Source: Rhynchobatus australiae
Taxonomy: Eukaryota
DNA length: 61,512 nucleotides
NCBI GenBank assembly: GCA_034780895.1
Contig: JAUZTB010000066.1
Location: 5,280,375 to 5,341,886 of the forward strand
Direction of reading: 5' to 3'
This document shows positions 8,218-39,559 of the stretch, in pieces (positions within the stretch are counted from its first letter, which is position 1; each line of letters begins with the position of its first letter). The notes beneath the pieces are model-generated. The model was not told the DNA's origin. It made no database searches and saw nothing but the letters and a program-made list of their open reading frames with translations. A program made the translations under genes and the position numbers.

Positions 8218-8292
8218 TTAGCAAGCATTTTGCTCATCAAAGCTGGTGTTTGAAGAGGAGCAGCCACCAGGAGGACTTTTGGGATGAGCCAT
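8218..8292 (-). CDS. PRR11: PRR11 terminal coding exon (MAHPKSPPGGCSSSNTSFDEQNAC*)
   Basis: Acceptor tttcag|ATG, phase 0, stop TAA at 8218-8220. Resembles the mammalian PRR11 C-terminus (LAHPRSP...SSFDEQN). Confidence 0.9.
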   Translation of the reverse strand: MAHPKSPPGGCSSSNTSFDEQNAC

Positions 8293-10634: not shown

Positions 10635-10728
10635 CTCAAATTTCCGTCTCAGTGCTTGGGTCATAACTGGTGTCAATCCTGTCGCAGTATCTTTGTTTTC
10701 CTTGTGGAGGGGTGTTCCACCAGGGCTC
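10635..10728 (-). CDS. PRR11: PRR11 exon ([32 protein letters not shown]), contains a KEN box
   Basis: ttttag|G...GAG|gtaaat; 94 nt, phase 2 to 0; very close to the PRR11 motif SPGGTPL.KEN...[15 protein letters not shown]. Confidence 0.95.
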
Positions 10729-12911: not shown

Positions 12912-12974
12912 CTTTCTATATTTACTTTCTTTAAACGCTGCCGAAGATCCAATACAGGTCGATGTGGAGTGATC
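12912..12974 (-). CDS. PRR11: PRR11 exon (M-ITPHRPVLDLRQRLKKVNIE)
   Basis: ttttattaag|G...AAAG|gtaata; 63 nt, phase 2 to 2; resembles TPGKSQMDLRKLLRKVDVER. Confidence 0.9.
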
Positions 12975-13076: not shown

Positions 13077-13183
13077 ATCATTTTTGGTGATTTCTGCAGT
13101 TGATTAGCTTTTTTCTGCAAATTAAAGCTTTGTAGATCAGAGATTTTGACTAAAGGAGACCTTTTCCTTCCTGGTGTATCCAT
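13077..13183 (-). CDS. PRR11: PRR11 exon (MDTPGRKRSPLVKISDLQSFNLQKKANQLQKSPKM)
   Basis: tttgtag|ATG...GAT|gtaagt; 107 nt, phase 0 to 2; resembles SPKARNPLVTVSDLQ. Confidence 0.88.
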
Positions 13184-14506: not shown

Positions 14507-14605
14507 CTTTGGTTTTTCTATTTTGTTCTGGGTCTTTCTTAGCTTCACATGAAGCAAATCCTTTACTGTAACAATCGGTGGTCCACCTCTCTTCTCAGGA
14601 TCAGT
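14507..14605 (-). CDS. PRR11: PRR11 99-nt exon, second tandem copy (TDPEKRGGPPIVTVKDLLHVKLRKTQNKIEKPK)
   Basis: tttttctag|ACT...AAG|gtgagt; phase 0 to 0; open frame. Confidence 0.9.
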
Positions 14606-14684
14606 CTAGAAAAACCCCAAAAGAACAATCCTACATCAAAGTATGTATTAATAAAACAAATAGCTTGACTTGACCAACACTGAC

Positions 14685-14783
14685 CTTTGTTACTTCAAAT
14701 CTGTCTACTGTCCTCTTCAGTTTTACTTGCAGCAAATCTTTCATAGTTATCGATGGTAGCTGACAGTTTTCCTCACAGACTGT
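14685..14783 (-). CDS. PRR11: PRR11 99-nt exon, first tandem copy (TVCEENCQLPSITMKDLLQVKLKRTVDRFEVTK)
   Basis: ttcacag|ACA...AAG|gtcagt; phase 0 to 0; resembles the ITVKDLLTVKLKKT motif. Confidence 0.85.
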
Positions 14784-18472: not shown

Positions 18473-18842
18473 CTGCAAAGGTTTTTCAGCTCTGGTTCTC
18501 CGCTGAATCTGCAGAGGCCTCTCTGTAAGCAGGGAAGCAGGAGGTAGAGGAGGTGGGGGAGGTNNNNNNNNNNNNNNNNNNNNNNNNNNNNNNNNNNNNN
18601 NNNNNNNNNNNNNNNNNNNNNNNNNNNNNNNNNNNNNNNNNNNNNNNNNNNNNNNNNNNNNNNGGAGGTGGGGGAGGTGGTGGAGGTGGTGGTGGAGGAA
18701 GAAGAGCCTCATCTGGCGACTTCAGTGGAGCACGACTGATGATTGGCTGCACTGCCCATATTGGAATTTTATTGGGACCTGGTAGGGAATCAATATACTT
18801 TCGACAGCAACATACTTCAGCAGCTTTTGCAGTATTGGGCTC
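18473..18842 (-). CDS. PRR11: PRR11 polyproline exon (EPNTAK...LLPPPPPP[gap]PPPPLPPASLLTERPLQIQRRTRAEKPLQ)
   Basis: tttgcag|GAG acceptor (phase 0) and CAG|gtaagt donor. The poly-Pro tract is interrupted by a 100-N gap, which explains the apparent frame change between ORFs 18486 and 18401. Confidence 0.9.
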
Positions 18843-25436: not shown

Positions 25437-25571
25437 CTGGTGGTGTTCACTGAAGATTTCTTGCATGTGTGTTAGTTTGATCTCAAGTGATTCAATATGT
25501 TGCCGAAGTGCATTCAACTCCCTCAGGTAAACACGGGAAGGATATAGAGTATCCTGGATTATTTCCAAACC
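25437..25571 (-). CDS. PRR11: PRR11 exon (GLEIIQDTLYPSRVYLRELNALRQHIESLEIKLTHMQEIFSEHHQ)
   Basis: tttacag|GGT...CAG|gttatc; 135 nt, phase 0 to 0; resembles SLEVLKDTIFPSR..REL. The donor is weaker, so that boundary is less certain. Confidence 0.85.
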
Positions 25572-39030: not shown

Positions 39031-39440
39031 GCCCATACATCACCCAATAGGAGCATGCCTTTCATGAGCCACACGCAGGAACGACTCTCGACCAACCGCT
39101 TCGGGTTTCTTATCGTCGTCGACTTGATTCAGCAAATAGGGGAACAACAAGGTCCTGAGCCGGCTGCTCGTCGAGCCAATGCATAACAGCCTTTCTGGTC
39201 CAATAGTATGCGGTGCATGTTATGATTGTCCAATCAGGTGGCGGTATGCATGATTCTGTCATCCTATCGGTGAGTCTATTGCATATCACAGAAACCAAAA
39301 GGTAATCCAATCAGAAACAGAGTTTCTACCCTGTCCAATGAGAATACCGATCTTGTGCAGCAACTGTCCAATCAAAAGCCACGTTACATCTCACTTAAAA
39401 GGCCTTTATCGGTTCGCCTTCGGAATGTAAACTATTCAAT
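39010..39440. promoter_or_regulatory. PRR11/SKA2 bidirectional promoter with an NF-Y CCAAT array and a CDE/CHR-like element
   Basis: CCAAT at 39044, 39176, 39200, 39230, 39307, 39335 and 39368, all in the same orientation. The minus strand has GGGCG...TTTAAA at ~39016-39034. It lies between the divergent first exons. Confidence 0.85.
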
Positions 39441-39473
39441 ATGGAGACCGCGGTCAACAAGCTGGCAGCGATG
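39441..39473 (+). CDS. SKA2: SKA2 exon 1 (METAVNKLAAM)
   Basis: ATG at 39441 and donor ATG|gtaaga at 39474; resembles mammalian MEAEVDKLELM; in phase with exon 2. Confidence 0.9.
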
Positions 39474-39559
39474 GTAAGAGGGATTTTTTTAATTTCAAAA
39501 AAAAATTTGTTTAAATTTGGAGACCGGTTTCAATGGGAAGAAACACATTGCAATGGGGA

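What the first reader, a model, noticed from the sequence alone, without database searches (positions are those of the whole stretch)
14507..14783. PRR11 has two tandem 99-nt phase-0 exons: an extra WH2-like 'T.KDLL.VKL(K/R).T' repeat
Seen: exons 14685-14783 (SITMKDLLQVKLKRT) and 14507-14605 (IVTVKDLLHVKLRKT) have identical length and phase, canonical splice sites and a 79-nt intron between them. The following exons carry weaker echoes (LVKISDLQSFNLQKK, LDLRQRLKKV). From recall, human PRR11 has a single such 99-nt exon. Established: a polyproline tract followed by helix-plus-LKKT motifs is the layout of WH2 actin-monomer-binding modules (WASP/WIP, and tandem-WH2 nucleators such as Spire and Cobl). 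Inference: this PRR11 has an expanded tandem WH2-like array from exon duplication, or mammals lost one copy. Either exon could be skipped in frame.
Basis: partly seen in the sequence, partly recalled or inferred. Interest (0 to 1): 0.7.

Follow-up and report, generated by a model that had tools for sequence, protein, structure and literature searches.

The report
Shark and ray PRR11 duplicated exon
Sharks and rays carry a second copy of one small exon in the cell-cycle gene PRR11 and splice it into the message, adding a third copy of a short repeat that likely grips actin in a way not yet described for this cancer-linked protein.

Summary
The gene is PRR11 (between SKA2 and SMG8) of a ray-like fish. 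Two 99-nt phase-0 exons (R1, R2) are 56/99 nt identical in register. Spliced contigs join both in 2 of 4 runs laid, so they are not mutually exclusive. R2 is absent from 4 of 18 shark/ray protein models; R1 skipping is inferred from one run. Polarity favours gain, not mammalian loss: 16 of 17 elasmobranch species have both; 0 of 102 bony-vertebrate proteins have two; lamprey, tunicate, echinoderm and cnidarian proteins have one such repeat plus the older second repeat. R1 is the new copy. The older repeat has lost its basic tail in elasmobranchs (0/18 against 66/97). The repeats are not canonical WH2: no Pfam hit, and 0/311 match the published WASP pattern. They have the LKKT-type tail and the helix spacing of beta-thymosin and MTFR1/2. 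Human PRR11 is reported to drive F-actin assembly, so a short WH2-like motif is likely (about 55%) but untested. Ordinary genomic event, useful functional lead.

The parts
14685..14783 (-). PRR11 exon R1, 99 nt, phase 0: the elasmobranch-specific duplicate repeat
   Evidence: joints in X1, X3; all 11 R1 sequences split from all other repeats at 99.9/90
14606..14684 (-). 79-nt GT-AG intron between R1 and R2
   Evidence: spliced out in X1 and X3
14507..14605 (-). PRR11 exon R2, 99 nt, phase 0: orthologue of the single A-type repeat of bony vertebrates and lamprey
   Evidence: closer to the bony/lamprey repeat in 91 of 95
13077..13183 (-). PRR11 exon R3: the family's ancient second (B) repeat, basic tail decayed in elasmobranchs
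12912..12974 (-). PRR11 exon R4, 63 nt: conserved L-R/Q-x-x-L-K/R-K-V segment before SPGGTP, a possible fourth degenerate repeat
18473..18842 (-). PRR11 polyproline exon (assembly gap of Ns at 18564-18663) directly upstream of the repeats
   Evidence: joint at 18473; acceptor
25437..25571 (-). PRR11 coiled-coil-like exon used to retrieve homologues
   Evidence: helix 113-145 in the model of a relative
10635..10728 (-). PRR11 exon with the conserved SPGGTP and TP.MT.AL..KF motifs
8218..8292 (-). PRR11 last coding exon to the stop codon
   Evidence: matches the C-termini of shark/ray proteins

Best explanation
This is an old tandem duplication of one in-frame PRR11 exon, shared across the sharks and rays sampled and spliced into the mRNA, that adds a third copy of a short repeat which likely binds actin as a short-linker WH2/beta-thymosin-like motif. 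Shown: two homologous exons, joint inclusion, a single A-type repeat in bony vertebrates, lamprey and most invertebrates sampled, 31-33-residue spacing kept by the duplication, and a decayed R3 tail in elasmobranchs. Inferred mechanism: PRR11 is a mostly disordered scaffold (N-terminal helices, polyproline, repeats, SPGGTP tail). Each repeat would lay a short helix (T-hydrophobic-x-D-hydrophobic) in actin's barbed-end cleft and its L[KR][KR]T along the acidic surface. The polyproline would deliver profilin-actin or SH3 partners, which fits the reported PRR11-Arp2/3 F-actin assembly in human cells. The new exon would restore two full-tailed repeats where R3 has decayed, and skipping R1 or R2 would give a one-repeat form.
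For: Duplication and use. Conservation: R1 core 77% and R2 core 90% mean pairwise identity over 14 elasmobranch proteins; 3 of the 4 R1 differences listed for organism A are silent (one search showed only part of its difference table). Motif: in 30 repeats taken by alignment column, positions -10, -5, -2 and 0 are hydrophobic in 30/30 and +1 is K/R in 30/30. Beta-thymosins and MTFR1/2-like exons of this genome have hydrophobic residues at the same -8/-5 positions. A profile of these 30 repeats beats all 50 shuffles for 9 of 14 genuine WH2 motifs of this genome, 1 of 3 thymosins and 2 of 3 MTFR motifs. The monomer model has short helices exactly at the three repeats within low-confidence, disorder-like sequence. 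Human PRR11 recruits Arp2/3 and promotes actin filament assembly even without proline-rich region 2 (PMC8720695, sections read). The hallmark of actin-binding motifs is helix + LKK(T/V) (PMC7407642, passages).
Against: No Pfam WH2 or Thymosin match for either exon or for 5 full proteins; none among the families displayed for 84 and 30 aligned proteins (which show 25 of 57 and 25 of 34 families). 0 of 311 family repeats match the published WASP-family pattern (linker relaxed to 2-10), which matched 7 of 14 control WH2s. The first of the two large hydrophobic helix residues is replaced by T/S, and a proline often sits two or three residues upstream, so the helix is shorter than the 9-10 residues described. 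No hit among solved structures for either exon at E<=10. Profile scores against WH2s are low (max 9.9 bits) and may come mostly from the shared tail; the best scores are to MTFR (14.8, 12.5), for which no WH2 link was found in print. No chimaera was sampled, so the date of the gain is bracketed only. RNA support comes from one organism and one study. The compensation idea is a correlation in a single lineage.
Confidence: 0.55

Rival explanations
1. The repeats are a PRR11/MTFR docking motif for something other than G-actin, for example the cleft of Arp2 or Arp3 (like the C region of VCA) or a partner shared with the mitochondrial fission regulators; the duplication adds one more docking site.
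For: The closest match of the motif is MTFR, not WH2. Pfam Mito_fiss_reg hits 18 of 84 PRR11 proteins at E<=1, best 1.4e-5. Language-model features of a crinoid PRR11 give an MTFR cluster at 0.91. The reported partner of PRR11 is Arp2/3 (PMC8720695).
Against: The V-K-L-[KR]-[KR]-[TV] tail after a polyproline tract is kept from cnidarians to mammals and is the described hallmark of actin-binding motifs; no acidic tryptophan-bearing A region follows it in the aligned C-termini.
Confidence: 0.27
2. The duplicate is tolerated but adds nothing: an in-frame 33-residue insertion in a disordered region, often skipped.
For: Repeat number varies in the family (one-repeat isoform models in 4 of 18 elasmobranch proteins; three repeats in starfish). 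Tandem exon duplications are described as abundant (PMC9013439, abstract). The R1 core is less conserved than R2 and degenerate in stingray/manta proteins.
Against: R1 is kept open, at 99 nt and with its core, in 17 of 17 elasmobranch species sampled while the flanking introns retain no similarity. A second duplicate in the same gene (last exon) has lost its acceptor, which shows what an unselected copy looks like.
Confidence: 0.1
3. Two A-type exons were ancestral for jawed vertebrates and bony vertebrates lost R1.
For: The data cannot exclude it: lamprey brackets the gain only to after the jawless/jawed split, and the R1 branch is long.
Against: It needs two events instead of one; 0 of 102 bony-vertebrate proteins, including bichir, gar, bowfin and paddlefish, have a second A-type repeat. 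R1 nests among R2 sequences in the tree, although with weak support.
Confidence: 0.08

Closest known systems
WH2 motif (Pfam PF02205; WASP, WAVE, WIP; tandem arrays in Spire and Cobl)
   Same: Polyproline, then short helix + L[KR][KR][TV]; hydrophobic residue two before the leucine; tandem copies about 30 residues apart in disordered sequence.
   Different: Helix hydrophobics at -8/-5 (and -10) instead of -10/-9/-6; no glycine in the linker; fails Pfam and the published pattern.
Beta-thymosin repeat (Pfam PF01290)
   Same: Same -8/-5 spacing before the LKK tail in this genome's thymosin exons.
   Different: No FDK-type linker conservation, no Pfam match; only 1 of 3 thymosins scored above all shuffles; the C-terminal second helix was not tested.
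MTFR1/MTFR2/MTFR1L (Pfam PF05308 Mito_fiss_reg)
   Same: Coiled coil - polyproline - hydrophobic-K-D-hydrophobic-x-x-V-K-L-R motif in identical register.
   Different: Scores stay under the curated cut-off (21.5-21.7 bits against 26.3); one motif per protein seen in MTFR, two or three in PRR11; part of the score is polyproline composition.
Human PRR11 (360 aa, ten exons; PMC9775115, passages) and Pfam 38.1 PRR11_1st/PRR11_2nd
   Same: Orthologue by sequence and SKA2 neighbourhood; R2, R3, R4 and the tail are shared.
   Different: One A-type repeat instead of two. The review lists an NLS, two proline-rich regions and a zinc finger, and no repeat or WH2 in the passages seen. The texts of the two new Pfam families could not be read and may already mention the motif.
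Tandem duplicated exons with mutually exclusive splicing (PMC9013439 abstract; PMC8373072 and PMC9741552 search listing)
   Same: Adjacent homologous exons of equal length and phase.
   Different: Here both exons are included together; skipping gives deletion isoforms, not only substitution.

Membership tests
WH2 (PF02205) | L[KR][KR][TV] tail | tested here: met
   R1 and R2 of the window have it; 182 of 311 family repeats
WH2 (PF02205) | Helix with two large hydrophobics, two small/polar residues, then I/L (published WASP-family pattern, PMC3298513) | tested here: not met
   0 of 311 repeats against 7 of 14 control WH2s; first hydrophobic replaced by T/S in 30 of 30
WH2 (PF02205) | Match to the Pfam profile | tested here: not met
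   none; none among displayed families; a genome search with PF02205 listed 14 places, none in the window
WH2 (PF02205) | Binds G-actin in the subdomain 1/3 cleft | not testable with these tools
   needs a binding assay or a solved structure
Beta-thymosin (PF01290) | Helix-to-LKKT spacing | tested here: met
   hydrophobics at -8 and -5 in both
Beta-thymosin (PF01290) | Conserved linker and Pfam match | tested here: not met
   (4 places listed, none in the window)
Beta-thymosin (PF01290) | Second helix after the tail capping the pointed face | tested here: inconclusive
   no helix there in the unbound low-confidence model
Tandem-WH2 nucleators (Spire, Cobl; features recalled) | Three or more functional WH2s that nucleate filaments | not testable with these tools
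   only two full-tailed repeats in elasmobranchs; needs pyrene/TIRF assays
MTFR family (PF05308) | Score above curated cut-off | tested here: not met
   21.5-21.7 bits against 26.3
Mutually exclusive duplicated exons | Only one exon of the pair in any transcript | tested here: not met
   both joined in X1 and X3 and in 14 of 18 protein models
PRR11 orthologues | Sequence match and SKA2 head-to-head neighbourhood | tested here: met

The most novel reading that the evidence does not exclude
PRR11 and MTFR1/2 share an unrecognised short-linker class of actin-monomer-binding motif that WH2 profiles miss. PRR11 is an ancient tandem-repeat actin regulator (cnidarians to mammals, with weaker look-alikes in a choanoflagellate and amoebozoans), and sharks and rays rebuilt its two-site array by exon duplication as the old second site decayed, then made the number of sites switchable by splicing.
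Probability: 0.35. Interest if true: 0.72.

Novelty: new variant of a known kind. Interest (0 to 1): 0.42.

Why it matters
The duplication itself is a common kind of event and is already implicit in public shark and ray gene models. Its value is that it marks the exon-sized functional unit of PRR11, a much-studied oncogene candidate whose actin activity has no mapped direct actin-binding element in the papers seen. If the repeat binds actin, human PRR11 gains a concrete mechanism that a few point mutations can test, the mitochondrial fission regulators MTFR1/2 gain a candidate actin link, and WH2 searches need a wider pattern. Shark isoforms with one or two full repeats would be a natural series for testing how the number of sites changes sequestering against nucleation.

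Tried and rejected
Complex prediction of R1 (33 aa) with a fish cytoplasmic actin (P0305, residues 120-494): no verdict. Scores were 0.62/0.58/0.59, but one unrelated control peptide scored 0.81 (the other controls 0.01 and 0.02), the alignments were not used, and the tool is untested for peptides; it counts neither for nor against. Run search: no holder on record as RNA; the four 'RNA?' runs were laid anyway, and X4 gave only one unspliced 151-nt piece over R2. The joint that would show R1 skipping directly (R2 to the polyproline exon) is not among the 15 joints displayed of 94, so R1 skipping in X2 rests on depth arithmetic only (observed 0.32 and 1.78 = expected for R2 plus the polyproline exon without R1). 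PDB sequence searches with A1, R1 and R2 gave nothing relevant. The monomer model (pTM 0.24) was too poor for a fold search, so none was run. Atlas search with the repeat region gave only leads under 0.8. No chimaera, coelacanth or lungfish PRR11 turned up among the listed hits (one search lists 120 of 153; of the 143 hits, 24 distant ones were looked up by name). The ELM WH2 regular expression was not in the passages read, so it was not tested. The 2020 J Biol Chem paper on PRR11 and Arp2/3 is not held; its deletion mapping and supplements may bear on the novelty claim. No supplements were read. Rejected: assembly artefact (copies only 57% alike, spliced contigs, many species); mutually exclusive splicing; a second genomic copy of R1 (one match only). 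Earlier scan notes: none near this place, none on PRR11.

Full report
1. The observation. On the minus strand, 14783-14685 (R1) and 14605-14507 (R2) are both 99 nt, open in phase 0, bounded by AG and GT, with a 79-nt intron. They are 56/99 nt identical without gaps, against 19-33 at 24 other shifts, and their protein score was reached by 0 of 20,000 shuffles. The introns around them share nothing. The gene is PRR11: an upstream exon retrieves 15 named shark/ray PRR11 proteins among 16 hits, the best identities being to rays (87-89%), and SKA2 and SMG8 flank it. R1 has a single match in this genome.

2. Splicing. No run was on record as RNA, but of four guessed-RNA runs laid, X1 and X3 have a contig with joints polyproline exon-R1-R2-R3-R4-C1 at the predicted boundaries, all with intron ends CT..AC on the plus strand. 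X2 shows the joints from R2 onwards and covers the polyproline exon at the same depth (5.24) but has no cover on R1. The bin depths equal those expected for a transcript without R1; the joint itself is not displayed, so this is an inference. X4 has only an unspliced piece. X1-X3 are one organism and one study, a relative or another individual with a few differences from the window. In public models R2 is missing, exactly 33 residues, in 4 of 18 full elasmobranch proteins (Mobula hypostoma X3, Stegostoma, Chiloscyllium punctatum X3, Scyliorhinus canicula X2); three of these species also have a both-in model. These are annotation models, not counted junctions. So both exons are used together and each seems skippable; they are not mutually exclusive.

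3. History. Both repeats occur in 16 of 17 elasmobranch species seen (Stegostoma has only the R2-less model). Among 102 bony-vertebrate proteins (mostly amniotes, plus amphibians, bichir, gar, bowfin, paddlefish, trout; one search listed 120 of 153 hits), 100 have one A-type repeat, 2 have none and none has two. Lamprey, a tunicate, an acorn worm, sea urchin, crinoid, priapulid, water flea, limpet and Nematostella proteins have one A repeat and one B repeat. The bony/lamprey A repeat is closer to R2 than to R1 in 91 of 95 scored (8 of 103 dropped for lacking two detectable repeats). In a tree of 68 repeat windows (one protein skipped), all 11 R1 are split from everything else at 99.9/90; the rest of this 33-residue tree is weak. 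The simplest reading is one gain of R1 before sharks and rays split (recalled: some 250-300 million years ago). No chimaera was sampled, so gain in early jawed vertebrates with loss in bony vertebrates remains possible.

4. The repeat. Taken by alignment column from 30 proteins spanning cnidarians to mammals, the A repeat is [IV]-[TS]-x-x-(D)-[LI]-x-x-[VI]-x-L-[KR]-(K/R)-(T/V), with the hydrophobic positions fixed in 30/30. Spacing from A to B is 29-35 residues in most proteins printed, and the duplication keeps it (33 and 33). Its tail matches L[KR][KRP] in 0 of 18 elasmobranchs, 66 of 97 bony vertebrates and 12 of 14 invertebrates plus lamprey. Elasmobranchs therefore have two full-tailed repeats, like invertebrates; whether the duplication compensated for the decay or allowed it cannot be told.

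5. Is it WH2? By membership, no. Pfam gives no WH2 or Thymosin hit, and 0 of 311 regex-collected repeats match the WASP-family pattern printed in PMC3298513 (passages), against 7 of 14 genuine WH2s from this genome. Genuine WH2s have hydrophobics at -10, -9, -6 from the tail leucine; PRR11 has -10, -8, -5. By likeness, yes in part: the tail and the -2 hydrophobic are shared, beta-thymosins of this genome have the -8/-5 spacing, and a profile of the 30 repeats beats all 50 shuffles for 9 of 14 WH2s, though at under 10 bits. The closest match is the motif of the MTFR1/2-like exons (14.8 and 12.5 bits; the third, 1.2), and PRR11 shares the coiled coil-polyproline-motif layout with that family. 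A monomer model of a ray protein is mostly low-confidence with short helices at the three repeats.

6. Mechanism. Human PRR11 associates with Arp2/3, promotes filopodia and, without proline-rich region 2, still stimulates actin filament assembly (PMC8720695; passages, section 17 part 1 and Discussion read). That leaves a role for the region behind the polyproline. With the helix + LKK(T/V) hallmark of actin-binding motifs (PMC7407642, passages), I judge a short-linker WH2/thymosin-like actin-binding repeat the likeliest reading (0.55). Binding, delivery of profilin-actin and any effect of repeat number are inferred, not shown. The main rival is a docking motif for Arp2/3 itself or for a partner shared with MTFR (0.27).

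7. Novelty. Searches of the held library found 0 papers with PRR11+WH2 and 0 with MTFR1+WH2; PRR11+AlphaFold (7 papers) and PRR11+actin-binding (11 papers) showed nothing on this motif in their listings. A review lists no such domain in the passages read (PMC9775115). The library lacks most subscription papers and the 2020 J Biol Chem study, and the new Pfam PRR11 families could not be read, so absence is provisional. Tandem exon duplication is common (PMC9013439, abstract). Verdict: real, lineage-wide, a new variant of a known kind; interest 0.42, carried mostly by the testable actin-motif lead.

Noticed in passing
window 10320-10193 (-), in the last PRR11 intron: Decayed copy of the last coding exon and start of the 3' UTR (8307-8183): local score 111 against a maximum of 39 in 300 shuffles; the acceptor AG is lost. 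A second duplication in the same gene, apparently unselected.
   Followed up: partly
L027, L031, L032 (own genome): MTFR1/MTFR2-like exons end in a motif with the same register as the PRR11 repeat, after polyproline; the third family member has a degenerate tail.
   Followed up: partly
P0143, P0136 (starfish): Three repeats plus the R4-like segment, an apparently independent expansion of the same array.
   Followed up: no
P0217, P0218, P0211: PRR11-like proteins in a choanoflagellate, Ceratiomyxa and Dictyostelium (E about 2e-6 to 4e-6, partly polyproline); the first two keep SPGGTP, suggesting the family predates animals.
   Followed up: no
window 12974-12912 (-): The 63-nt R4 exon is missing from one Amblyraja isoform model (P0001) and present in another (P0386), so a third repeat-bearing exon may be skippable.
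   Followed up: no
window 14779 (-): A second AG four bases inside R1 would shift the frame if used; not among the joints displayed.
   Followed up: partly
window 39040-39480: At least six CCAAT boxes just before a short coding exon starting at 39441 (+), likely SKA2 exon 1 (identity recalled); fits the NF-Y bidirectional PRR11-SKA2 promoter described for human.
   Followed up: no
P0110, P0127: Paddlefish and a similar unnamed protein have about 27 extra residues between repeats A and B that are not a repeat copy.
   Followed up: no
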